This document shows positions 43 through 59,886 of a stretch of DNA of 64,000 nt, one piece after another. How positions within the stretch are numbered: position 1 is the stretch's first letter; the number at the start of each line of letters is the position of its first letter. The notes under the pieces are model-generated. The model was not told the origin of the DNA, searched no databases, and saw only the letters and a program-made list of their open reading frames with translations. The position numbers were made by a program, and so were the translations under genes. Origin of the DNA: a virus; IMG/VR virus record IMGVR_UViG_3300036791_000458, positions 1-64,000 of that record; one strand, written 5' to 3'.

Positions 43-1754
43 AGCACCGCCTGAGGTTGAGGAACGAACGGTTGACCACCAAAGTTTGGAGAGTTAGAGA
101 ACTTATTGAGACAAGTAGAACTTTGCTTGTCACATCCGGGATAGACATCGAAGGTATCCCCAACTTGAGGAACGTTAGGAAGCGACGCGGTCATGTAGAG
201 CACATGACTGGAATACGCTCGAACACAAACCTTTTGTCCCGCGTTTAGTCCTGACGTGAATTCTACCACACCCTGATCGAAGAAACCATCCGCTTGAGTC
301 AATCCGGTGACCAAAGAATTAACCGTAGAACCAGAAAGCACTATACTGTTTGACTTGAACGACAAACGATTTAAAGTGCAACCGAAATCGTAAAGAGTGT
401 AGGAACAAGCAGGAGTCAATGTACGTGGCGGGTTCGGTTGCTGTAACAAACCAACCACACTATTACAAGTAAGCGTAACCTGACTTCTACCTGCCGAGGT
501 GGTATCTCCAATCACTCCCATGAAGTCAATAATGGTTCCCGTAGACACATCTCCGGGAGTTGCCATAAAACAACTTTCAACTTTGATTAGGCAGTCTAAA
601 AACCCCTTCTGCAAAATGTATATCAGGAAAGGTAACCCGCTAATTAAGTCTATGGAACGAGCATTCACGGTGAGAGACATGGTTGAGACTTCAACACCGA
701 TCTTAGTCGTGATCGAACCACGAACGAAAGTAGGTGGGCCAGCTAAGAACGTATTTGCTGCCAAGTAGTAAACAAATATCTTGTCAAACTCTGCTGTCAT
801 CGTACCAGAAAAGCCACCGTTCCCGAGGTAAATTGAGACTGTCGCAGCGGTAGCAGGAACGGTTGTATTTCCAATTATTGAAGTCCAAGAGGAAGACGTG
901 GTAGACCCGATGGTAGGAGTACCGACTTGTGTATTTGAAGCATCGGAAAACACACAAAGTACATAGGCACCGTGAGTACCATCACTCTTCACCTGAGCAG
1001 AGACAGTGATGACTTGATTCGGAATAACTGGATAACTCCCGCTTATACCGTATCCACTTAAAGGCGCAGTTACAGCGAGACTTTGTCGTCCACTGAATTG
1101 AGCTGTAGTATCATAAGCGAGTGTCGCACCACCCGTAGGACTCCAACCCGGAACGGGTAGAAGATTGGATTCTTCGAAATCTGAGTTGCGAAGAAGTGGA
1201 AACTGCCCAATGGTCAAGTTCTTATTCCATGTCGTGTACCGAAGCACACTCAGTGGATTCTCTACCCCTTGTGTAAGAATGACGGATGAACCCGAAATAG
1301 TTGACCAACCAGAAAAATTTAAGCTAGTTACTAAGTTGATTCCGTCTGCGGCTTTACAGATAATTGGATTGAATGCTATTACATCTATAGAATCAGTTGC
1401 AACTGATCCACTAAATCTCAACTGAACAAAACCTACACCGTCCCCAACCCCGGAAAGAGAAACTGCTTGACTAGCACCGGGAGCAATACTAGTATTCTGA
1501 TTCACGCCAAAGTTCACATCAATACGAACCGGAGCAAGTCCAATATTTCTAACGATGACTTTAACTAAGTAAGTCACGCCACTCGCACCTACTCCAGCAG
1601 AGAAAAAGTACTTCAAGGCGGTTGTCCCACCTATACTCTGAATTCTTGTCCCGGTATTTTTTGCGGTATGGAGATTGATCGTGTATAGGTCAGCACGATA
1701 GAAATCTCTTCCGCTATTCAACAGAGAGATTAAAGCAGTAGATGCAGCTTTCAT
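39..1754 (-). CDS. Baseplate hub protein (DUF2163/BR0599, GTA-like) with inserted carbohydrate-binding-like domains
   Basis: N-term 'RADLYTI', 'LRYTTW'. C-term 'C.YTLYDFGC', 'FFDQGVVEFTSGLNAG', 'GDTFDVYPGCDK...C.NKFSN..NFGG.PFVP' are typical of BR0599. The 'LLRNSDFEE...GWS' insert is CBM4/9-like. Confidence 0.85.
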   Translation of the reverse strand: MKAASTALISLLNSGRDFYRADLYTINLHTAKNTGTRIQSIGGTTALKYFFSAGVGASGVTYLVKVIVRNIGLAPVRIDVNFGVNQNTSIAPGASQAVSLSGVGDGVGFVQLRFSGSVATDSIDVIAFNPIICKAADGINLVTSLNFSGWSTISGSSVILTQGVENPLSVLRYTTWNKNLTIGQFPLLRNSDFEESNLLPVPGWSPTGGATLAYDTTAQFSGRQSLAVTAPLSGYGISGSYPVIPNQVITVSAQVKSDGTHGAYVLCVFSDASNTQVGTPTIGSTTSSSWTSIIGNTTVPATAATVSIYLGNGGFSGTMTAEFDKIFVYYLAANTFLAGPPTFVRGSITTKIGVEVSTMSLTVNARSIDLISGLPFLIYILQKGFLDCLIKVESCFMATPGDVSTGTIIDFMGVIGDTTSAGRSQVTLTCNSVVGLLQQPNPPRTLTPACSYTLYDFGCTLNRLSFKSNSIVLSGSTVNSLVTGLTQADGFFDQGVVEFTSGLNAGQKVCVRAYSSHVLYMTASLPNVPQVGDTFDVYPGCDKQSSTCLNKFSNSPNFGGQPFVPQPQAVL

Positions 1755-24404: not shown

Positions 24405-27400
24405 CTAGTTATTCACTACCTCTATGATTGCTTCACTAGCGGTAATTGTATTTGAAGCATTACCAGTTTTAATAGAAAATGATAAGATGCCATTCGCTAT
24501 TGTCGTGTCGAAGGCACTCATCGCTGGTTGAATAATCTGAATTGGGACAACGGATATACCAGTCAAAGCTGTACCGACTGCTGCGCCGCTTGTATTGAAC
24601 AATATGGCTATCGCCATTCCTGTGCCAGCAGCACCAACGCTTCTAACAGTGAACATGATTTGGATAGCCCAAGCTATGTTAGTTCCTGTTGTAGCTTGAG
24701 CGGCGAATGTAAAAGCACATATCGATGCATCTGCTGTCGTACCAGCAGTTCCCCAACGCATTGTAAACACTGGCGCGGAAGCATTACCACCAGTAGCAAC
24801 ACCCAACATATGACACTGAAAAACAGTACCTGCAACTAATCTATTTGCAGCAAGTGCAGCAGTTTTTACTGCAATTGTTTCCGTTTGACTGATTGCAGCT
24901 GTCGCAGAAAGTAGTGCAGCTCCGCCCGTACCAACACCAGCACCAGTGTAACCAGTCGCGCCTGTAGATGAGGCTGATCCTGCTACACCAGTATAACCAG
25001 TGTAACCAGTCGTACCTTGAGTTCCGGCAGGGCCAGTATATCCAGTCGGGCCAGTTACTGTACTTGGTGTTCCAGCAGACCCAGTGTAACCAGTTGGCCC
25101 GGTTACGGTAGATGAAGCTCCAGTGTATCCGGTGTAACCCGTATAACCAGTCGCACCTGCTTGAGCCATCAAAGCCCAGAACGAAGTATTGGTCGGAAGA
25201 TTTCCAGTAGACGGAGCAATACAAACGTAGCTTGAATTCTGGTAGCTAACTACATCATTGACTCCATACGTGGTGCCTGCATTGTAAGCACCTCTCCAAG
25301 TTAAAATCGGAATTGGAGTACTTGGCGCGACTACACCAGAACGAGTTGCGACAAGGTTAATACTTACATCTGCCATCGTGGCATCTTGAGTAGCAGGTGC
25401 AAGAATTGTTAATCTATCACCCGGATTAGCAGTTACCACTAAACCACTGGAAGAAAATGTTTCTACCCCTGATGTATTGAATGTGCAAGTTCCAATTTGC
25501 ACTCCATTCTTGTATATGGTGTAGACGGCAGTTGCAGTTGGATTAGTACCTACTGATGCCTGAGAAGTTGGAGTGTTGAAGTCAGCAGGAAATTGAGCAG
25601 GAGCAGCTACCGTACTAATACAAACTAGTTGACTGGCGGTAGGTTTTCCTGCAACAGCAGAAACAACATGCGTAAAATTATCAGTGCCTAATCCCGTATA
25701 ACCAGTCGGGCCGGTATAGCCAGTGAAATTCCCTGCTCCAGTGTAACCAGTTGGCCCGGTGTAACCAGTATAACCAGTGAAGTTTCCTGCTCCAGTGTAA
25801 CCTGTGTAGCCAGTCCTTCCGGTGTAACCAGTAGTACCAGTCGGGCCTATAAGTCCAGTGTAACCAGTTGGCCCGGTTACGGTAGAAGATGCTCCAGTGT
25901 AACCAGTTGGCCCAGTGACGGTAGAAGAAGCACCCGTGTAACCAGTGTATCCAGTGTATCCGGTAACGGTTGACGCAGCTCCCGCTGGCCCGGTATATCC
26001 CGTGTAACCAGTGAAGTTTCCTGCTCCAGTGTATCCAGTTGCACCTTGAGTTCCAACACTTCCGGTGTATCCGGTGTATCCAGTCGCTCCTACTACACCC
26101 TGAATTCCCTGAGCACCTGTATATCCGGTGTATCCGGTTGGGCCTTGAGTTCCAGCAGTACCTTGACTTCCGGTGTAACCTGTAAATCCAGTTGGCCCGG
26201 TTACTGTTGAAGCTGCGCCTACAGAACCCGTGTAACCAGTGTAGCCAGTAGTACCTTGAGTTCCGGCAGTTCCTTGGCTACCTGTATATCCGGTGTACCC
26301 GGTTGGGCCTTGACTTCCAACAGTACCTTGACTTCCGGTGTAACCTGTATAACCCGTGTAACCAGTAAAAGCACCCGTCCCAGTGTATCCGGTGTACCCA
26401 GTTGACCCCGTGGGGCCGGGATTCCCTGCGCTCCCCACAGAACCCTGAGCACCAGTGTATCCGGTGTATCCAGTGTAACCAGTCGAACCTTGAGTACCTT
26501 GAGTTCCGGTGTAACCAGTATAGCCAGTCGGCCCGGTAGAACCAATTCCAGCAATACCAGTGTATCCGGTGTAACCAGTTGAACCTTGAGTTCCGGGACT
26601 TCCGGTGTAACCTGTATAACCAGTTGAACCTTGAGTTCCCGGTGTTCCGGGAGTACCTTGTGCACCCGTGTATCCTGTATAACCTGTTACTCCTTGTGTG
26701 CCTTGAGTTCCGGTATATCCGGTGTAGCCAGTCGAACCAATAGTTCCAGCAGTGCCTTGACTACCAGTATACCCAGTGTAACCTGTAGCTCCCTGACTAC
26801 CTACATTCCCAGTGTATCCGGTGTATCCTGTCGAACCTTGAGCACCAGTGTAACCAGTTGGGCCTGTAGTTGCAGAACCGGAACCCGCAGGCCCGGTGTA
26901 ACCAGTAGGCCCGGTTGGGCCACCACCTGACGGCCCAGTAGGCCCAGTTGGGCCTGTAGATGACGCGGCACCCGCGCTTCCCGTATATCCGGTGTAACCA
27001 GTACTTCCAATCGCACCTTGAGTCCCGGTGTATCCGGTATATCCAGTTGCTCCGATAGTTCCAGCAGTACCTTGATTACCCTGAGCACCAGTATATCCAG
27101 TGTAACCTGTAGCTCCACTACCCGTATAACCAGTGTAACCTGTGGCTCCTTGTGTACCCGGAGTTCCGGTAGTTCCGGCAGTACCTTGACTTCCGGTGTA
27201 ACCAGTCGGCCCAGTGTAACCTGTAGTTCCCTGTACTCCTGAAGCACCCGTGTAACCAGTCGGGCCAATGGTTCCTGCTGTTCCCGTGTAACCAGTTGGC
27301 CCTATGGTTCCTATACCAGTGTAACCAGTGTAACCAGTATACCCGGTGTATCCTGTCCCACCAACCCCCGGTGTACCTTGAGCACCAGTATAACCAGTTG

Positions 27401-27794
27401 GGCCTGTGAAGTTTCCTGCGCCAGTATAACCAGTGTATCCAGTCGTACCAGTCCCAGAAGCACCTGTATATCCAGTTGGGCCGATAGAACCCGGAGCACC
27501 ACCCGATCCCGTATAACCAGTAGGCCCGGTGTAACCAGTCCTTCCGGTGTAACCAGTAGCACCCGTAGAAGATGCACTACCTGCGCCTCCAGTATACCCA
27601 GTGTATCCGGTGTATCCTGTAGCACCAGTGTATCCAGTCGCACCATTCCCACCACCACCAGTGCCGCCACCTTGATTATTTTCTGCAAAGGTATCGATCT
27701 TATCAAAGTTTTGGTTGACGGCCGAGTCCCAACCAACTTCACCGCGAAGAGGTTTATAGAGACTTAGAAACGGAGTTGTTGTACCAGATGCCAT
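24405..27794 (-). CDS. Collagen-like fibre protein (G-Y-T / G-x-T triplets) with carbohydrate-binding-like module
   Basis: Hundreds of Gly-X-Y triplets; '[22 protein letters not shown].....GN.P....FW' CBM5/12-like motif. Start ATG 27794 matches the paralog N-terminus. Confidence 0.85.
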
Positions 27795-27801
27795 AAACCT
27801 C

Positions 27802-28467
27802 TTAGCTTGATATGTAGAATAAAATCGGTGATGGTGTTGCGACAACAGCTTGTTTGAATGCAGCTACAAACGCCATCACTTGATAGTCTGTAGTTGTTGG
27901 TGTAAAAGTACCAGTCGCAGCAATTCCAGTAGTGCTTGCATAAGCTAACATTTCTTCCATGTAGGCAAGTCCATCAGAAGTAGTAACGACTGAACTAAAA
28001 CCGGAACCGGGCGTGAATGTTCTACCACCTTGTCTAACCTCTGATGCGAAACCCAAAACTAAATCGCCAGACTGGGCAAGAACAGCAGTAGCACTCGAAG
28101 TCCAGTTTGGTGAACCCGGATCAAAACCATTATCTAGACCTGTTGCTTTATCCAACGGAGATGCGAGAGTACCAGAGTATTCTGCCACGATTAGTTCTGC
28201 CTGATTAAATGTAAACGTTGCTACAATACTAGTCACACCAGCGGGTGACGCCGGAAGAAAGTAAACACCAGCCAGAAACGGCGTTGTTAAATTTTTTGCA
28301 ATCGTTAAGCTGGTGCCTGAATTAGTTTTAACTGTAATTGCACCCGATGTTCCAAGAACAGTTAGATAAGCAACAATCAGACTATTTGCCTGCGAAGCAG
28401 TAATTGTTACAGTCAAGCTAGTTGCACCAGACGTAACTCCTGCCTTTTGTTGAACTCTAGTTGCCAA
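27802..28467 (-). CDS. Putative virion fibre-associated beta-sandwich protein
   Basis: Thr/Ser/Ala-rich, 'AEYSG...PLD', located between the two collagen genes. Confidence 0.5.
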
Positions 28468-31234
28468 ACCGTACTACCTCTCCACCATTCACGGTGTATA
28501 TATTGCTTGCTGATGCAACACTAAATGTACCTAGAAGAATTGGCGTTTGTTGAACTGTCATGTCAACCGCATTACTTACAACTTGCTCAATATCAAACTT
28601 CGGTGTATTCGCTGTACCAGTCGCAGCCTGAGCAACCATCAATTTACCGACACAACCGAAAATACCTGTCGTACCAATTGAACGACGAATGATAGTAAAT
28701 TCAACTTCCCAAGCATAACTGACTCCAGCAGTCGGAATCGTCTGAGCTGGAAACATAAGCAAGGTAGTAACACCTTGAATAGCTAACCTAATCTGGAAGG
28801 TTGTTGTAGAAGCTGCGAGATTAACTGTCCCGAAGGCGTGAATCTTCAAAAATCTTCCTGCAACGTCTAGGTATCCTGCTGGAATCACAATACTATACAA
28901 AGTTTGGTCACCAGTTGTATTTGCAGAAAGAGTTGAAGTCGTAATCTTTGCATCACGAACGTAAAGTGCTTGCGCGGAATCCAGTAGATCAGCATTTGTA
29001 TCTAAACCCGCGTAACCGCTGGGTTGATTTTTGTTAGCAGTTAATTCTGCGCCCGTTGTACCACCTGAACCCGAAGGCCCAGTATATCCGGTGTATCCAG
29101 TCGCGCCTTGACTTCCAGAACTTCCGGGAGCACCTTGGGCACCAGTGTAACCAGTAGCACCAGTTGCTGTCGCAGCTCCCGCTGATCCTGTATACCCGGT
29201 GTACCCAGTCGCGCCACCCTGTGCCATAACATTCCAGAACGATACGTTCGTCGGAACGTTACCAGTCGATGGAGCAATACAAATGTAACTACCATTTTGA
29301 TAGCTAACCGCGTCATTCACTCCATAGGTAGTACCACTAGCGTAAGCACCTCTCCAAGTTACAATTGGAATTGGACTACTCGGTGAGACAACCCCTGATC
29401 TTGTTGCAGCTAAAGTGATACTCACGTCTGATAGTGTGGTATCTTGAGTTGCGGGCGCAGTCACCGTCAATCTGTCACCCGGATTTAGCGTTACAGTTGT
29501 ACCACCCGTTGTGGTGAACGTGAAAACACCAGCAGTAGAAATTGCAATCGAACCTACTTGAGTACCATTTTTTTGAACAGTATAGGTTGCAGTAGCCGTG
29601 GGATTAGTTCCAACCGAACCTTTTGAGTTTGGAGTCGCGAAGTTCGCAGGAAACTGCATAGAAGTCGCGGCGGTATAGATCATCACCGACTGACTTGCAC
29701 TCGGTTTTCCTATGACTGCGGAAACCAAGTTACTAAAATTATCAGCCCCTAAACCAGTGAATCCGGTGTAACCTGTTGCACCAGCTATACCTTGAGGGCC
29801 AGTTGAACCCGTCGCTCCCGCTGGGCCTTGACTTCCCTGTGGGCCTTGAATACCTTGACTTCCCTGTGGGCCAGTAGAACCTTGTATACCTTGCGCGCCT
29901 TGTGGGCCTTGAATACCTTGACTTCCCTGTGGGCCAGTAGAACCTACAGAACCCGGTGCTCCCGGTGTTCCTTGAGCACCAGTGTAACCAGTATAGCCAG
30001 TGTATCCAGTCGGCCCCACAACGCCTTGTGTACCTTGAGCACCAGTGAAACCAGTGTACCCAGTGAAACCAGTTGCACCTATAGTTCCGGGAGTACCTTG
30101 AATACCAGTGTAGCCAGTGTAACCAGTGAAACCAGTGTATCCAGTCGCGCCCAAATTACCAGTTGTACCTTGAACACCCTGAGCACCAGTGTAACCAGTA
30201 GGCCCAGTTGAACCTTGAATACCAGAATTACCCGTGTATCCGGTGTAACCAGTATAGCCAGTTGAACCTATAGTTCCCGCGACTCCTGTATACCCGGTTG
30301 GCCCGGTAATTGCAGATGCGGGGCCAGTATAGCCGGTGTAACCAGTATAGCCAGTTGAACCTGTAGAAGACGCGCCACCCTGTGGCCCGGTGTATCCTGT
30401 CGCACCAGTTGCTGACGCGTTTCCTGCTGGGCCAGTTGTACCAGTATATCCGGTGTAGCCAGTCGAACCAGTCGCAGAAGCTGAACCTGCTGGCCCGGTA
30501 GTTCCGGGAGTACCTTGAATACCAGTGTAGCCAGTGTAACCAGTGAAACCAGTGTATCCAGTGAAACCCGTGTAACCAGTTACACCCGGAATACCTTGAG
30601 CACCAGTATATCCGGTGTAACCCGTGTAACCAGTTACACCCGGAATACCTTGTATTCCTTGGCTTCCGGTATACCCGGTGTAGCCAGTATATCCTGTAAC
30701 TCCCTGATTACCTTGAGCACCCTGTATTCCTTGACTTCCGGTATAACCAGTGTATCCAGTGAATCCCGTGTAACCTGTTACGCCTTGTGGCCCTTGTATT
30801 CCTTGACTTCCAGTGTAGCCAGTATATCCTGTAACTCCCTGATTACCTTGTGGCCCTTGTACTCCTTGACTACCTTGACTTCCGGTGTAACCTGTCGCGC
30901 CTTGTGGGCCTACCGGGCCTTGATTTCCCTGTACACCTTGAACACCTTGAACACCCTGATTGCCTTGAGCACCTTGTGAGCCTACCAAACCTTGTGGCCC
31001 TTGACTACCTTGTGGCCCTTGAGTGCCTTGAGCACCTACTGGGCCTTGTGGCCCTGTAGTTCCGGTAGTTCCGGCAGGGCCGGTGTACCCGGTATAACCT
31101 GTCGCACCAGTCGCACCACCCGAGTACGCTCCATCCAGAATATCCCAGTTCGCGTTAACCTGATCACCCCAGTCAAACGAATCGTTTGCAGGTTTGAAAA
31201 GGTTTAGATTAGGAGTTGTCGAACCTGTAGCCAT
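28457..31234 (-). CDS. Collagen-like fibre protein (paralog of 24405-27794)
   Basis: GYT/GPQ/GxQ triplets; same N-term ('TTPNL.L.KP') and internal domains; '[12 protein letters not shown]'. Confidence 0.85.
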
Positions 31235-55232: not shown

Positions 55233-56493
55233 AGCTCAGACTCAGACTGTGACTATGACTTAAACTTTGACTGTAGCCGTCTTTGACTCCGACTTAGACC
55301 TTGTCCATGACTTCGACTGTAGCTTACGAACGTCTTTGGAACTCTATGACTTTGACCACGACCTTGCCTTCGACTGTGGCTACTGAGACTTTGGCATTGA
55401 AAAGGACTCGGCCTTTGACTGCGACTACGATTACGACTTCTTCAACTTCGACTTAGGCATCAACCGTGACTTTAACCTTGACTCCGGCTTCTAAGACTAT
55501 GCCTAAACAGGGACTCAAGCTATGACTGAGACTCCGTCTTCTTTGACTTCAACTACGACACCGACTTCGACACCAGCTATGGCCAAGTCCTTGACTTTAA
55601 CCTTGACTCCGGCCTCTGTGACTTAAACACTGCCTGGGACTACGACTTCAACTGTAGCTTCTACGACTTCGACATAGATATCGCCTTCGACTCTGCCTAG
55701 AACGTTGACTATGGCCTCTTTGACTAGAACATTGACCTCGTCTGTAACTCTGACTTCGGCACTCTTCGTCTACGGCAATGACCGGGTCTATAGCTGCGAC
55801 TCCAACTTCGGCTTCTTCGTCTTCAACCTAGACTGGGACTACGACTTCAACTGCGACTTCTTAGACTCAAACTTAAACATCGGCTATAACTCAAACTTTG
55901 ACACGGACTCAAGCGATTATGACTATGGCCGTGACTTGGACTCAGACTCCTGAGACTGCGACTTCGTCTACGGCAATGACTATAACTGTGCCTTGGACTT
56001 CGACTTCAGCTTCTGTGACTACGACACCGACTTTGTCCATAACTTTGACCGTGATTTATAACTAGACTACAACTCCGACTTTGACATTGCCCATGACCTT
56101 GACTACGACAGAAGACTACAGCTTCTGAGACTCGGACTGGGACTTCGTCTAAAACTCAAACTCTGACAGCGGCTGTGACCATGACTTTAACTGAGACTGT
56201 AGCTTCTCGGACTTAGACACAAACTTAGACCTCGCCCATGACAATAACCATGACTTCAACTGCGACTGTGACTCCAGCTTCTGCGACTAGGACATAAACC
56301 ACGACTTCATCTTAGACCGGGACTGCGGCTAGCTTCGACACGAGCTTTGACTTAGCCCACGACTATGCTTCAACTTTTTACGCGTAGACTTTGACTTGGC
56401 TTCAACTTAGTCATTGACTATGGCTTCTGTGACTAGGACTGTGACTGAATCATTGACACCGACTACGGCTTCTGAGACTATGACGTAAACTTC
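55233..56493 (-). repeat. Main hexamer-periodic array (+ strand consensus GACTNN; - strand AGTC-NN) punctuated into 6n+3-nt units; candidate guide-RNA array
   Basis: About 200 hexamers with near-invariant C at position 3 and free positions 5-6; recurrent 9-nt punctuation RGC TTC TNN; stop codons in all frames. Confidence 0.85.
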
Positions 56494-56644
56494 ACTTCGA
56501 TTCTACTTGCCTATTGTCTGCAAGAAGTAATAACGCTTCAAGTTCAAACTGCAATTTTAGTGTATCCGTGCCATCAACATCCTCACCATTCTTCTTACGA
56601 AGCAATTCCAAAAGATGTCGGGTTGCAGTAAAATCCATGATCAT
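56492..56644 (-). CDS. 50-aa hypothetical protein embedded between array segments (not in the ORF track)
   Basis: MIMDFTATRHLLELLRKKNGEDVDGTDTLKLQFELEALLLLADNRQVESK*, with SD GGAG upstream. Confidence 0.6.
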   Translation of the reverse strand: MIMDFTATRHLLELLRKKNGEDVDGTDTLKLQFELEALLLLADNRQVESK

Positions 56645-56657
56645 TTAGCTACTCCAA

Positions 56658-56840
56658 TACTTTGACAGTGACTTAATCATAAGCACCGACATGGACTACG
56701 ACTGTGGCTTCTATGACTCAGTCATGGACTCGAACTAGGACTGTGGCAGCAACTTCAACCTTGACTATGACTCCGGCTTCTTCGACTTTGATCAAGGCTA
56801 TAACTTCAACCTAGACTGCGGCATCGGCTTCTTTGACTTC
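56658..56840 (-). repeat. Second hexamer-periodic array segment
   Basis: Same grammar; GGC TTC T punctuation at 56706, 56775, 56826 (spacing 69, 51). Confidence 0.8.
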
Positions 56841-57077
56841 GGGTTCATCAGGTTCATCGGTGAGAGTGACCTTGAAATATTCGCCACCTATCGAAAACAC
56901 ACGAGCGATATGTGATTCTTCTTCTGAAAGTGGTCTCCCAACTTCAATGCTAATGACAGGAGAAAAACCCTCGCTATAATCCGTTGCTTCCTTCACAAAA
57001 ACATCAAAATCGTTTTCCTCAAGATCATTACCTTCGAGCGGTATTTCAATCAAAAGTTTTTTCAAGTTTGCCTCCAT
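56811..57077 (-). CDS. Acidic hypothetical protein (88 aa); C-terminus runs into the array
   Basis: Clean ORF, D/E-rich. Confidence 0.6.
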   Translation of the reverse strand: MEANLKKLLIEIPLEGNDLEENDFDVFVKEATDYSEGFSPVISIEVGRPLSEEESHIARVFSIGGEYFKVTLTDEPDEPEVKEADAAV

Positions 57078-57084
57078 TTTCTTT

Positions 57085-57205
57085 ATCTTTGACTAAAACT
57101 GCGACTGAAACTGTGACTTAGACTCCGGCTTCTTCGACTGAAACTCGAACTCTGACACGAACCGTGACTTTGACTCAGGCTTCTTCGACTTTGGCTATGA
57201 CTTAG
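57085..57205 (-). repeat. Third hexamer-periodic array segment
   Basis: GACTNN/AACTNN hexamers; GGC TTC TTC punctuation at 57127 and 57178 (spacing 51). Confidence 0.8.
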
Positions 57206-57214
57206 CTAAGGCGG

Positions 57215-58291
57215 TTACTGAATTTCTAAAATGGTCAAGTGCACCATCTGTCCGCTCATCTCCACCACTTCACCAACGTATTGCTTCGAGGTTAGTCCGA
57301 AGATTGCGACATGTGGCTCACCATTTGATGGTTTGTGCTCATAGATGAGATTGGTTTTAAAATCCATCGTCAGAACTTTTTTGACGGCCTCAACCGCGTG
57401 CTCGGGTTTGTACTCGAACACATTGGTTTTGTCTTCCCCTCTCAATAGTTCTGTGCCCATACGTTTGACCGCGTCTTTGTGGAGTGCTTCCCATGACAAC
57501 GGCACATCGAACAATTCGATAGTCTTGCACCCGGTGTAGGTAATCAGTGACAACCCACACTGGTTTTCATGCAGGCGTGCCTTGGAAAGAATGTCATCGA
57601 AGTTCTGCGAGAAAGCATCGAAGTTATCCTTGAGATTATCCTGTCTAAAAGAAGAAAGAGGCGGCTGTTCCTCGGGAATTGATACTGACGAACCGAATAT
57701 TCCGCTAGAACGAGATGTGAATGTACGACGAACACCCGGAACACGTCCGGAGATATCCGCGCTCACTCTTTCACCACCCATCATGGCGTTCATGGTTGTA
57801 GTGGTTTTGGTTACGTTCTCCCAAACCGTATGTTGATCTGCTGGAGTGAACCCCGCTGTGTAGCTCGCGTTCTCAACCGCAATTGGAACGGTGCCACCGT
57901 ACTTGAAATTGCTTCCAGTACGAATACCATGACTCGCGTGAACACACCGAGCATCAAGCGCAACCTCAGAGTTAGGAAACAACACCGCGCTTCTGGTAAT
58001 GATTCTGGACTGGGTTCCCTTGCCTTCGAAGATGGTTCCGGAGCGAAGGAAGACGTTTTCTTTCCCAGTGTTTTTGATATTGATTTTGTTGATCATGCCA
58101 CTGTCCGTAACAATGACGTTTTCTGTCTCTGGCATGGTGACATACTGACGGACAAAAGTGGTTTCCCGAAGGATTGGAAGGATACAAGCTAAGGATTTCT
58201 CGGATGGACGATCTGGTTTTCCGAATGAGAAACCCAACTTCTCTTCTGCTACTGCAAGAAGAACTGCCTCTTTGCTAAGAGTTTTAGCCAT
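57215..58291 (-). CDS. ARPP-1 (DUF6569)-like domain protein
   Basis: 'I.IKNTG...VFL..G.IF.G...Q.R', 'CV', 'Q..VW..V', 'NQCG', 'IELFD' pattern; SD AGGAG before ATG 58291. Confidence 0.65.
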   Translation of the reverse strand: MAKTLSKEAVLLAVAEEKLGFSFGKPDRPSEKSLACILPILRETTFVRQYVTMPETENVIVTDSGMINKINIKNTGKENVFLRSGTIFEGKGTQSRIITRSAVLFPNSEVALDARCVHASHGIRTGSNFKYGGTVPIAVENASYTAGFTPADQHTVWENVTKTTTTMNAMMGGERVSADISGRVPGVRRTFTSRSSGIFGSSVSIPEEQPPLSSFRQDNLKDNFDAFSQNFDDILSKARLHENQCGLSLITYTGCKTIELFDVPLSWEALHKDAVKRMGTELLRGEDKTNVFEYKPEHAVEAVKKVLTMDFKTNLIYEHKPSNGEPHVAIFGLTSKQYVGEVVEMSGQMVHLTILEIQ

Positions 58292-58347
58292 GTGGTACTC
58301 CTTTTGTTCACGGATTCTTCCGTGTATACACATGTGTACTACCTAAC

Positions 58348-58674
58348 TCAGAAAAATGTCAAATCTTCACGGACTCGCAGAACTAGCTTTTCAGCCATTC
58401 CTATAGCTGCGTCCGGTGACTCATACTGTGGTTTTGAGGTGACCAAATCACGTATGCGTATAGAACCGGATGGTGTCCTGTCCAGCATCCCGATATAGAG
58501 ACCAAACTTCCCAGTCTCTTTATCAGGCCCGAAGTAAGAACAAAAAACTTCGTCTTCATCGGCTGCACGAATCACAATAAAGGTAAGCTGCGAGATACTT
58601 CCCAGCATTCTATCGACTTCATCGATTGGCATGTATTCTCTTTCTCTCGCGTGCTTTAAAGTCGTACAGTCCAC
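58348..58674 (-). CDS. Hypothetical protein
   Basis: Co-oriented ORF; start may be the internal ATG (MPIDEV...). Confidence 0.5.
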   Translation of the reverse strand: MDCTTLKHAREREYMPIDEVDRMLGSISQLTFIVIRAADEDEVFCSYFGPDKETGKFGLYIGMLDRTPSGSIRIRDLVTSKPQYESPDAAIGMAEKLVLRVREDLTFF

Positions 58675-58816
58675 CCCAGTGACCTAGTGAGCGAAGTTCA
58701 TTACGAAGCCTTCTACTCATGGTACTTCTACAACCGTACTTATTGTTTGCCCAAGCGAGTACATCAAGAAGACTACTGACTTTCACTTTACGACTAACTT
58801 TACGATCAATTAGCAT
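58619..58816 (-). CDS. Small basic hypothetical protein
   Basis: 65 aa, SD AGGAG upstream. Confidence 0.5.
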   Translation of the reverse strand: MLIDRKVSRKVKVSSLLDVLAWANNKYGCRSTMSRRLRNELRSLGHWGGLYDFKARERKRIHANR

Positions 58817-59028
58817 ACTACTCTCCTGTCAATCAGTCAAAACATCGTCATAGTCGGAGCGTTCTCTAAGCTCCATTTCCTCTGCTGGTACTGACGGTAA
58901 ACGTCAGATGGCGAAGGTCGTCAAGCGCGGGAAGGTGTACGGGTTCCGGGACGGTATTGTCCACCCACACGAACTAGCTTAGTATAGCTCATAATTTTCC
59001 CCCTTTGGAATTACGTTCTGAATAAATA

Positions 59029-59076
59029 TACTTCGACTTAGGCGGCGTCGTAGTCTGAGCCTGTGACCGTGACTTA
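59029..59076 (-). repeat. Isolated 8-hexamer unit of the periodic array next to the RAMP-gene terminator
   Basis: TACTTC GACTTA GGCGGC GTCGTA GTCTGA GCCTGT GACCGT GACTTA: C at position 3 in all eight hexamers. Confidence 0.65.
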
Positions 59077-59114
59077 AAAAAATGGACTACTCCCCAACGA
59101 CAGAGAGTAGTCCC
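59076..59114 (-). terminator. Rho-independent terminator downstream of the RAMP-like gene
   Basis: 9-bp stem GGACTACTC/GAGTAGTCC (59084-59092 / 59105-59113) followed on the - strand by ATTTTTTT. Confidence 0.75.
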
Positions 59115-59172
59115 GAGTTTATCCGTACCCGGAAGGATTTCGGATAAGCAGCCTCAACCATGAGCAAACCTG

Positions 59173-59886
59173 TTATTCTGCTTCTGCTTTTTCTTCGCCT
59201 TCAACTTCTTCGTCGTCTTCTGGAACGGTGACCTTTGCTTTCTTGGGCGCGGGAGTCAGATAGTCCCAACCCGCGACTTGGAACCGTCCATACCCTTGAG
59301 GACGAGCAGAACCGATACCAATCTGTTTCCCGCCCCATTCGATCAGCTTCTTCAAATCGTCGGGCAGGATGATTTCCTCATCAACAGAGAACACGCCCCG
59401 GGCAATGAAGTCATCGATGTAGAAACTGGAGCACCAGTTCCGCTGGTTGGACGTTTCCATTTTGACGAAACGTTCAAAGAGCTTCGCGTCAGCGACAGTC
59501 TTCTCGGTGACCATCATTTTGTCCGCTATCTTGACACCGATGAACGTCAAACCCTTGTCAGACACACGCGGAATCGCTTTCGGCGCTTGCATCGACGCAT
59601 TGTTGATGAAACTCTGAATGATTCGTTCCGGGATTGCGATCAGACCTTCACGCGTGCCGTCCACGGTGTAGAAGGGACGTTCTGCTTTTTTCTGCATGTC
59701 TTCGTAGTTCTCTTTGGTGAGACCACGTTTTTCGAGCGCAGCGAGCAGAGCCTGCTCTTTTTTGCTCGCGCCCAGTTTGGGGTGAACGTCTTTGCTGATG
59801 TCGATGATTGTATTACGCTCGGGCCAGTAAGGCAATCCGATGTAACCGGAACCATTGAAGTTAAACGCGACTTGAACTTTAACCAT
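59173..59886 (-). CDS. Stand-alone Cas7/RAMP-superfamily-like protein
   Basis: 'IAIPERIIQSFI' (cf. RAMP 'IPGSS.KG'), helix 'LKKLIEWGG', then G-rich loop 'GIGSARPQGYGRFQV', acidic tail; SD GGAG; no other cas genes in the window. Confidence 0.72.
   Translation of the reverse strand: MVKVQVAFNFNGSGYIGLPYWPERNTIIDISKDVHPKLGASKKEQALLAALEKRGLTKENYEDMQKKAERPFYTVDGTREGLIAIPERIIQSFINNASMQAPKAIPRVSDKGLTFIGVKIADKMMVTEKTVADAKLFERFVKMETSNQRNWCSSFYIDDFIARGVFSVDEEIILPDDLKKLIEWGGKQIGIGSARPQGYGRFQVAGWDYLTPAPKKAKVTVPEDDEEVEGEEKAEAE

What the first reader, a model, noticed from the sequence alone, without database searches (positions are those of the whole stretch)
55233..59886. Stand-alone phage Cas7/RAMP-like protein with 6-nt-periodic non-coding arrays: candidate non-CRISPR RNA-guided system
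Seen: ORF 59173-59886 has RAMP-like features (IAIPERIIQSFI; helix followed by GIGSARPQGYGRFQV). No cas1/3/5/6 or canonical CRISPR array is in the window. Downstream on the same strand lie four blocks (59029-59076, 57085-57205, 56658-56840, 55233-56493) of a hexamer reading AGUC-NN in RNA sense: G near-invariant every 6 nt, two freely variable positions. Established: Cas7 backbone subunits polymerise along guide RNA with a 6-nt footprint. Inference: each hexamer seats one RAMP protomer through the fixed bases and the variable bases spell a discontinuous targeting code, e.g. for silencing host defence genes or rival phages. From memory (unverified), a recent report describes phage 'VIPR' systems with a RAMP protein and RNAs alternating fixed GGY and variable NN. 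This locus could be a relative, but its register is 6 nt rather than 5, so it may be a distinct type.
Basis: partly seen in the sequence, partly recalled or inferred. Interest (0 to 1): 0.95.

Follow-up and report, generated by a model that had tools for sequence, protein, structure and literature searches.

The report
Six-base VIPR-like phage guide arrays
An uncultured soil phage carries a lone CRISPR-type (Cas7/Vipr-like) RNA-binding protein and about 25 compact guide-like units built from six-base repeats (four constrained letters, two free), most likely a six-base relative of the RNA-guided VIPR gene silencers first described in 2026, which are reported only with five-base repeats.

Summary
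On the minus strand, three non-coding blocks (57205-57085, 56840-56658, 56493-55233) hold about 240 hexamers N-N-A-G-Y-C. G is 94% fixed and the first two bases are free.

The 237-aa ORF 59886-59173 folds as a Cas7-type RAMP (Csm3, Z 11.5). It is a distant sequence relative of the characterised SUSP1 Vipr protein: both hit phrog_4652, hhalign gives 95%, and the only significant PDB sequence hit is 36pp.

The gene-array pairing is conserved:
- All 26 close homologue loci with downstream sequence carry period-6 arrays.
- So do 23-24 of 25 distant ones.
- Only one locus also gives a short period-5 call.
- True Vipr relatives show period 5 under the same scan.

The fixed bases co-vary with the protein's glycine loop, which is one residue longer than in five-base Viprs. 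A 9-mer (NNA-GAA-GCC) cuts the arrays into units of about 7-11 repeats. Between two sister phages, units are either kept whole or replaced.

No RNA data exist and no convincing target was found. One exact in-frame match to a terminase-small-subunit-like HTH gene is only a lead.

Verdict: a new six-base variant of VIPR. This scan has already noted the same kind on other phage DNA.

The parts
59173..59886 (-). vipr-like gene: 237-aa stand-alone Cas7-type RAMP. It has an RRM core, a three-helix insertion (res 22-68), a thumb-like beta-hairpin (res 135-157) and a glycine loop GIGSARPQGYGRF (res 190-202).
   Evidence: AF2 pLDDT 84.8. Csm3 9g9a_D Z 11.5, and 32 of the top 35 fold hits are CRISPR RAMPs. 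phrog_4652 E 2.6e-6. hhalign to SUSP1 Vipr 95%, E 3.8e-8. Profile hit to PDB 36pp_D E 5.8e-5.
59084..59113 (-). Intrinsic-terminator-like hairpin (13-bp stem plus T run) directly after the gene.
   Evidence: Similar hairpin plus U-tract between gene and array is visible in L007 and L014 (sequence printed).
59029..59076 (-). Possible single unit of 7-8 hexamers (NNxGxC) just past the terminator; statistically marginal.
   Evidence: Run of 7 in-phase G.Y; 1 of 20 shuffled genomes reaches 7.
57085..57205 (-). Array block 1: 19 hexamers and 3 punctuation marks, starting at the stop of the ARPP-1 gene.
   Evidence: The orthologous block in sister phage L001 keeps positions 3-5 but not N1N2.
56658..56840 (-). 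Array block 2: 29 hexamers and 4 punctuation marks. Its first unit (56784-56831) has all 16 NN bases identical in L001. Its second unit (56715-56774, ten hexamers) gave the one exact database match.
55233..56493 (-). Array block 3 (main array): 194 hexamers and 18 three-nt punctuation marks, giving about 19 units. The RNA is not more structured than shuffles.
   Evidence: Fold z = +0.69. No collinear match to the L001 array although the flanking genes are 81-88% identical.
57215..58333 (-). ARPP-1-domain gene lying between the RAMP gene and the arrays. It is local cargo, not a conserved partner.
   Evidence: Pfam PF20208 E 6.9e-21. Shared only with L001. No gene other than the RAMP is conserved across loci.
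56811..57077 (-). 88-aa acidic ORF inserted between blocks 1 and 2. It is absent from L001, and its last codons overlap the start of block 2.
56492..56644 (-). 50-aa ORF between blocks 2 and 3, partly conserved in L001.

Best explanation
This is a phage-borne, CRISPR-independent RNA-guided system of the VIPR kind that works in a six-base register.

Proposed mechanism:
- The arrays are transcribed on the gene's strand.
- One RAMP protomer binds each hexamer through the constrained A-G-Y-C bases, mainly via the glycine loop and thumb, and polymerises into a filament.
- The filament presents the two free bases of successive repeats as a gapped guide.
- The 9-mer NNA-GAA-GCC (a hexamer with a 3-nt insertion) interrupts the filament register. 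It delimits guide units of about 7-11 repeats, i.e. 14-22 informative bases, either by processing or by filament breaks.
- By analogy with VIPR, each unit recognises double-stranded DNA of a competing mobile element, probably reading codon positions 1-2 and skipping the wobble base, and silences it.

Shown here: the fold, the homology to Vipr, the conserved gene-array pairing, the co-variation of repeat motif with protein, and the unit-wise conservation or replacement of NN.

Inferred: transcription, binding stoichiometry, processing, DNA targeting and the skip rule.
For: Fold. Cas7-type RAMP model, pLDDT 84.8; Csm3 Z 11.5; nearly all top hits are RAMPs.

Homology to a characterised Vipr. Ours hits phrog_4652 at 2.6e-6, SUSP1 Vipr at 1.4e-96. 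hhalign gives 95%. PDB 36pp 'SUSP1 Vipr protein' is the only significant sequence hit of the family profile.

Pairing of gene and array.
- All 26 close-homologue loci with downstream sequence carry a period-6 array right after the gene. One of them (L013) also gave a short period-5 call.
- 23-24 of 25 distant relatives (27-40% identity) in viral contigs also have flanking period-6 arrays.
- True Vipr relatives (L066-L089) give period 5 with a similar scan.

Co-variation of fixed bases with the glycine loop:
- ARPQG[YF]GRF goes with NNAGYC
- SCRPQGYGRF with NNTGCC
- RKMG[WK]GRF with NNCGCC
- RKMGFGRG with NNTGGC
- RKMGCGRF with NNCGGC
The hexamer clades have a 13-residue loop without the Asp-aromatic pair that reads G1 and G2 in SUSP1 (10.64898/2026.04.26.720927). 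They keep the Arg that holds the pyrimidine.

Grammar. Punctuation marks are spaced 45, 51, 57, 63 or 69 nt across 172 sites.

Information in NN (window versus sister phage).
- Block 1: N1N2 12/34 identical, against 64-71% at four-fold sites (Fisher p 4e-4).
- First unit of block 2: 16/16 NN identical, while I count about 7 of 28 constrained-position bases changed by hand on the alignment.

Codon-like NN. NN composition correlates only with sense codon positions 1-2 (r 0.63-0.66; other phases -0.48 to 0.26).

Structure. The array RNA is unstructured.
Against: - No RNA run holds the locus, so transcription, strand and processing are unproven.
- A strong terminator separates the gene from the arrays.
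- Sequence homology to Vipr covers only the C-terminal ~60-75 residues.
- No target was found in the phage itself, its sister phage, about 470 kb of related loci, 401 genomes of the Terracidiphilus MAG's family, or 31 relatives of an array-bearing MAG.
- The single exact IMG/VR match has a chance expectation of about 0.03-0.05 per pattern, and four patterns were tried. It lies in a 65% GC phage while this one is 46.5% GC, and no other unit matches that contig.
- The purine-rich NN bias could be a structural constraint and not a codon imprint.
Confidence: 0.78

Rival explanations
1. The protein coats the repeat RNA, but the ribonucleoprotein is not a guide. It acts instead as a scaffold, sponge, decoy or regulatory RNP, and the NN positions are simply unconstrained.
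For: No secure target was found. NN in block 1 are randomised between sister phages.
Against: One unit keeps 16/16 NN while its 'fixed' positions drift. Units have a regular length. The homologous VIPR system is a proven guide system (10.64898/2026.04.26.720920). NN composition is codon-like and strand-specific.
Confidence: 0.1
2. It is an RNA-guided system that targets RNA (as type III Csm3/Cmr4 backbones do) and not DNA.
For: The closest solved folds are Csm3 and Cmr4, which are RNA-targeting backbones.
Against: NN resemble the sense strand of codons, and the one exact hit has mRNA sense. Such a guide would pair with the template DNA strand, not with the mRNA. The sequence homologue Vipr binds dsDNA.
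Confidence: 0.05
3. The repeats act as DNA: binding sites for a DNA-binding protein, or a packaging or replication region next to the small terminase gene.
For: In this phage and in L001 the main array abuts terS.
Against: Across about 50 loci the array follows the RAMP gene, not terS. Neighbours differ, for example a D5 primase in L007 and L009. Orientation relative to the gene is constant: x-G-x-C-N-N on the gene strand.
Confidence: 0.04
4. The arrays are degenerate or unusual coding sequence, a Ser-X repeat protein read in the AGY-CNN frame.
For: That frame is intrinsically stop-free and the 3-nt punctuation preserves it. In L003 it stays open for 266 aa.
Against: In the window no frame exceeds 62 aa. 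Slips of 4, 5, 7 and 8 nt break the frame, and there is no start codon. The variable bases would fall in one codon only.
Confidence: 0.02

Closest known systems
VIPR systems (Vipr RAMP plus vrRNA). The type II exemplar is Escherichia phage SUSP1 (KT454805.2 28474-29061; PDB 36pp). Sources: bioRxiv 10.64898/2026.04.26.720920 and 10.64898/2026.04.26.720927.
   Same: Phage-borne and CRISPR-independent. Stand-alone RAMP with RRM core, helical insertion, thumb and a G-loop ending GRF. Adjacent non-coding tandem repeats that alternate constrained bases (with an invariant G and a pyrimidine) with two hypervariable bases. Repeat tracts of comparable length. Sequence homology detectable.
   Different: Repeat period is 6, not 5: NN plus four constrained bases against NN plus GGY. 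The G-loop is one residue longer and lacks the Asp-aromatic pair. Many units are packed head to tail, separated only by a 9-mer, where SUSP1 has separately promoted ~100-nt vrRNAs with a structured 3' tail or pseudoknot. No conserved vap accessory gene. The target rule is unknown.
Non-canonical 5-mer VIPR arrays (GAC/NN, CAC/NN, WGT/NN and others) reported from entropy periodicity (bioRxiv 10.64898/2026.10.21.760802).
   Same: Vipr-like fold next to arrays whose fixed bases depart from GGY. The motif differs by clade.
   Different: All of those are period 5. That survey lists periods 5, 18 and 60-79 (plus 7, 8 and 10) and does not mention a period-6 class with a RAMP partner.
Class 1 CRISPR Cas7 backbone subunits (Csm3, Cmr4, type VII Cas7).
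   Same: Best structural matches (Z 9-11.5). Cas7 filaments bind crRNA with a 6-nt footprint, the same step as these repeats.
   Different: No cas operon, no repeat-spacer array, no Cas5, Cas6 or large subunit. Only 2 of 6 bases vary here, whereas Cas7 leaves 5 of 6 free to pair. No hit to PADLOC cas models.

Membership tests
VIPR | Vipr protein: minimal RAMP with RRM core, glycine-rich loop and thumb (plus alpha-bundle) | tested here: met
   AF2 model and fold searches. The secondary-structure order matches the domain description in 10.64898/2026.04.26.720927.
VIPR | Sequence relationship to characterised Vipr proteins | tested here: met
   phrog_4652 is shared; hhalign 95%; PDB 36pp E 5.8e-5. 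The homology is weak and covers only the C-terminal third. The authors' own PSI-BLAST from X1U2U4 could not be run.
VIPR | Minimal non-CRISPR locus on a virus or provirus | tested here: met
   76.5-kb virus record with terS and structural genes. No CRISPR-type array by TRF, and no PADLOC cas hit for the five ORFs tested.
VIPR | Adjacent non-coding tandem repeats alternating conserved bases with a hypervariable NN | tested here: met
VIPR | Pentanucleotide repeat unit (YNNGG, or NNNGG, YNNNG, NNNNG) | tested here: not met
   Period 6 in the window and in about 50 homologous loci. One locus (L013) also gave a short period-5 call. A similar scan finds period 5 at SUSP1 and its relatives.
VIPR | vrRNA of 9-16 repeats capped by a conserved structured 3' tail | tested here: not met
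   Units hold about 7-13 repeats and are bounded by the 9-mer NNAGAAGCC. No tail and no excess structure (z +0.69). No Rfam ribozyme.
VIPR | Associated vap accessory gene | tested here: not met
   Only the RAMP gene is conserved across loci. The paper notes that loci 'typically' have a vap gene, so this is not strictly required.
VIPR | Repeat RNA is expressed and co-purifies with the protein | not testable with these tools
   No RNA run holds the locus.
VIPR | dsDNA recognition by NN with a 1-nt skip | tested here: inconclusive
   NN composition fits sense codon positions 1-2. One exact in-frame 10/10 match, at chance level of about 0.03-0.05 per pattern. All other searches were blank.
Class 1 CRISPR-Cas (Cas7 subunit) | Cas7-type RAMP fold | tested here: met
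Class 1 CRISPR-Cas (Cas7 subunit) | Encoded in a cas operon next to a repeat-spacer CRISPR array | tested here: not met
   No such array, and none of the five ORFs tested around the RAMP gene is a cas gene.

The most novel reading that the evidence does not exclude
The six-base systems form a large, separate branch of Vipr-like RAMPs whose footprint equals that of CRISPR Cas7. Their compact multi-guide arrays are matured at a 3-nt-insertion punctuation, much like a pre-crRNA. On this reading they sit closer than five-base VIPR to the ancestor of class 1 CRISPR backbones, and they may read targets by a rule different from the published 1-nt skip, which would give a second programmable gapped code.
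Probability: 0.25. Interest if true: 0.9.

Novelty: new variant of a known kind. Interest (0 to 1): 0.72.

Why it matters
VIPR was described only in 2026 as a pre-CRISPR, RNA-guided DNA silencer with a gapped five-base code.

A broad clade uses six-base repeats instead. It has at least 118 protein clusters at 50% identity, found in soil phages and Acidobacteriota contigs. It shows lineage-specific fixed bases, a longer glycine loop and CRISPR-like packed arrays.

This shows that the repeat-to-protomer register is evolvable. It gives natural protein-motif pairs for learning how RAMPs read fixed bases. It also offers more programmable scaffolds. The 6-nt step matches Cas7, which bears on how CRISPR backbones arose.

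Tried and rejected
Tools and data that gave nothing:
- No RNA holder is listed for the locus, and read laying was not used.
- TRF does not see the array, because only 4 of 6 bases match. There were no Rfam hits and no PADLOC cas hits.

Target searches with NN at target periods 2-6 against NN-shuffled controls:
- 300 kb and 473 kb of related loci: no signal.
- Window guides against the sister phage, sister guides against the window, and each against itself: no signal. A 12-nt perfect match there did not extend.
- IMG/VR exact scans under the 1-nt skip rule for three long units: 0 hits.
- 401 genomes of the Terracidiphilus MAG's family: one 2-mismatch hit, which is the chance level.
- Two long units of the L003 array in 31 relatives of its MAG: 0 hits.

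The one exact hit (L090, peptide GINEATLRHW in an HTH ORF upstream of terL) is kept only as a lead. All 13 hits of the 8/10 core pattern were also in frame on the sense strand, so being 'in frame' adds no independent weight.

Rejected readings:
- A coding reading of the array.
- The period-6 signal at 34151-34500, which is a coding linker.
- ARPP-1 as a conserved accessory gene.
Full report
OBSERVATION

The minus strand of 55233-57205 carries three non-coding blocks with a strong 6-nt period. Autocorrelation in the main block is 0.495 at lag 6, against 0.17-0.23 at lags 1-5 and 7-8. GTC occurs 103 times against 16.7 +/- 3.6 in shuffles.

A dynamic-programming segmentation gives 194, 29 and 19 hexamers in the three blocks. 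Their consensus is N-N-A-G-U-C. Position 4 is G in 94%, position 6 is a pyrimidine in 97%, position 3 is A in 71% and position 5 is U in 73%. Positions 1 and 2 are free.

No frame on the array strand stays open beyond 62 aa, and register slips of 4, 5, 7 and 8 nt occur, so the blocks do not code. The small block at 59029-59076 is only marginally above chance. A further period-6 signal at 34151-34500 is a coding Pro/Thr/Ser linker in a 742-aa protein. TRF does not detect the arrays because only four of six bases repeat.

THE PROTEIN

ORF 59886-59173 (237 aa) has no Pfam or PADLOC hit. Its AlphaFold2 model (pLDDT 84.8, pTM 0.74) matches Cas7-type RAMPs almost exclusively: Csm3 9g9a_D at Z 11.5, Cmr4, type VII Cas7 and gRAMP.

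It is also a distant sequence relative of the experimentally characterised Vipr of Escherichia phage SUSP1.
- SUSP1 Vipr (KT454805.2 28474-29061, located through its flanking 5-nt arrays) hits phrog_4652 at 1.4e-96. The window protein hits the same family at 2.6e-6.
- hhalign of the family alignment against SUSP1 Vipr gives 95% probability over the C-terminal 57 residues.
- The only significant hit of the family profile in the PDB sequence set is 36pp, 'SUSP1 Vipr protein' (E 5.8e-5).

THE PAIRING IS CONSERVED

The protein has 97 close homologues (E up to 1e-133) and 118 clusters at 50% identity.
- Of 33 fetched loci, all 26 that hold sequence downstream of the gene carry a period-6 array directly after it. 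One (L013) also gave a short period-5 call. They include Terracidiphilus and other Acidobacteriota contigs.
- A second, distant clade (27-40% identity) in 25 IMG/VR viral contigs shows period-6 arrays flanking the gene in 23-24 cases and period 5 in none.
- As a positive control, a similar scan finds period-5 arrays beside SUSP1 Vipr and its 37-40% relatives.
- No other gene is conserved across the loci. The ARPP-1 gene and the small ORFs between gene and arrays are shared only with the sister phage L001.

REPEAT MOTIF AND PROTEIN CO-VARY

On the gene strand every array reads x-G-x-C-N-N, but the two x positions differ by clade together with the glycine loop:
- ARPQG[YF]GRF goes with NNAGYC.
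- A single A-to-C loop variant (L017) goes with NNTGCC.
- RKMG[WK]GRF goes with NNCGCC.
- RKMGFGRG goes with NNTGGC.
- RKMGCGRF goes with NNCGGC.

Five-base Viprs have a 12-residue loop, G.[GC]D[WFY]RP[RK].GRF. The six-base clades have 13 residues and lack the Asp-aromatic pair. According to 10.64898/2026.04.26.720927, that pair reads G1 and G2 in SUSP1 (D177, W178). The six-base clades keep the Arg that holds the pyrimidine. This co-variation is confounded with phylogeny, but it is what a cognate RNA-protein pair predicts.

GRAMMAR

In this clade the arrays are punctuated by a 9-mer, NNA-GAA-GCC, which is a hexamer with a 3-nt insertion. Across 172 instances the spacing peaks at 45, 51, 57, 63 and 69 nt, i.e. 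one 9-mer plus 6-10 hexamers. The window has 18 + 4 + 3 such marks, giving about 25 units. Distant clades use 5-nt slips instead.

The array RNA is no more structured than shuffles (z +0.69), and no Rfam family matches. A strong terminator follows the gene. Comparable hairpins lie between gene and array in L007 and L014.

VARIATION

The sister phage L001 (91% protein identity, flanking genes 81-88% nt identity) has no collinear match to the main array.
- In orthologous block 1, identity is 5/17 and 7/17 at N1 and N2, but 14/17, 17/17 and 15/17 at positions 3-5. Four-fold degenerate sites of the flanking genes are 64-71% identical. Fisher p is 4e-4.
- The first unit of block 2 keeps all 16 NN bases, while I count about 7 of 28 constrained-position bases differing by hand on the alignment.

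So units are either kept whole or replaced whole, as informative cassettes would be. The sample is small.

TARGETS

NN composition correlates with sense codon positions 1-2 (r 0.63-0.66) and with no other phase or strand. This fits the published wobble-skipping rule, but it could also reflect a purine preference.

Most searches were blank. These covered periods 2-6 against shuffled controls in related loci, the phage itself and the sister phage, and patterns in several hundred Acidobacteriota genomes. Of four exact IMG/VR scans under the 1-nt skip rule, three found nothing.

The fourth gave one hit. The ten-hexamer unit at 56715-56774 matches a 47.6-kb phage contig exactly (L090 6751-6779). 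The match is in frame on the sense strand and spells GINEATLRHW, in the HTH of a 149-aa ORF just upstream of terL.

This hit is a lead, not a finding.
- The 8/10 core pattern gave 13 hits, all in frame on the sense strand. I estimate the chance expectation of a full hit at about 0.03-0.05, from typical Gly and Cys/Trp codon frequencies.
- No other window unit matches that contig.
- That contig is 65% GC against 46.5% for this phage.

MECHANISM

The best-supported reading has four steps.
- The arrays are transcribed on the gene strand.
- One protomer binds each hexamer through A-G-Y-C.
- The filament presents NN as a gapped guide.
- The 9-mer breaks the register and sets unit ends.

By analogy with VIPR, the complex then binds DNA of competing elements. 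The fold, the homology, the pairing, the co-variation and the cassette-like NN behaviour are shown. Expression, stoichiometry, processing, target type and skip rule are inferred.

COMPARISON AND NOVELTY

The four held VIPR papers describe only 5-nt repeats. Their figures and supplements are not held, so I cannot exclude that this clade sits unremarked among the 667 published systems.

The locus fails three VIPR features as published: the pentamer period, the structured tail and the vap gene. It meets the others. It is not a CRISPR-Cas member.

I class it as a new variant of a known kind. This scan has already reached the same reading on other phage DNA. I treat that as a lead and not as support, although my loci L035-L059 confirm independently that such arrays are widespread.

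Noticed in passing
window 57215-58333 (-): A 372-aa ARPP-1-domain protein (PF20208, E 6.9e-21) sits between the RAMP gene and the arrays. It is conserved at 86% identity in sister phage L001 and absent from all other loci. Its role is unknown; it may be conflict-system cargo.
   Followed up: partly
L035-L059 (e.g. L040 4614-5832, L055, L057): Distant six-base clades place arrays on both sides of the gene. They use 5-nt register slips (15 in L040) where the window's clade uses the 9-mer punctuation.
   Followed up: partly
L003 10001-10629 (G002:C11:225566-226200): The RAMP gene of this Acidobacteriota MAG matches in two pieces in different frames. This could be a frameshift, a pseudogene or a long-read error. 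Its array frame AGY-CNN stays open for 266 aa, a by-product of the fixed bases.
   Followed up: no
L027-L029: Three short contigs encode only the N-terminal ~100 residues of the RAMP (64% identity) in a ~150-aa ORF, with no period-6 array detected. They may be truncated or domesticated forms.
   Followed up: no
window 55467-55980 (-): Runs of several hexamers recur within the main array (for example GG-AA-AA... in two units, and AT-GT-GA in two units). This suggests that units arise by duplication and then diverge at NN.
   Followed up: no
window 25700-31060 and 32628-34856: There are long coding 9-nt repeats (collagen-like Gly-X-Y on the minus strand) and a 742-aa protein with a Pro/Thr/Ser linker. 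These are probably tail-fibre or host-recognition proteins of the phage.
   Followed up: no
L007 11851-14448, L009 1837-4434: A D5-type primase-helicase (PF08706, PF19263, PF03288) lies directly after the array in two loci, which places those systems on mobile elements.
   Followed up: partly
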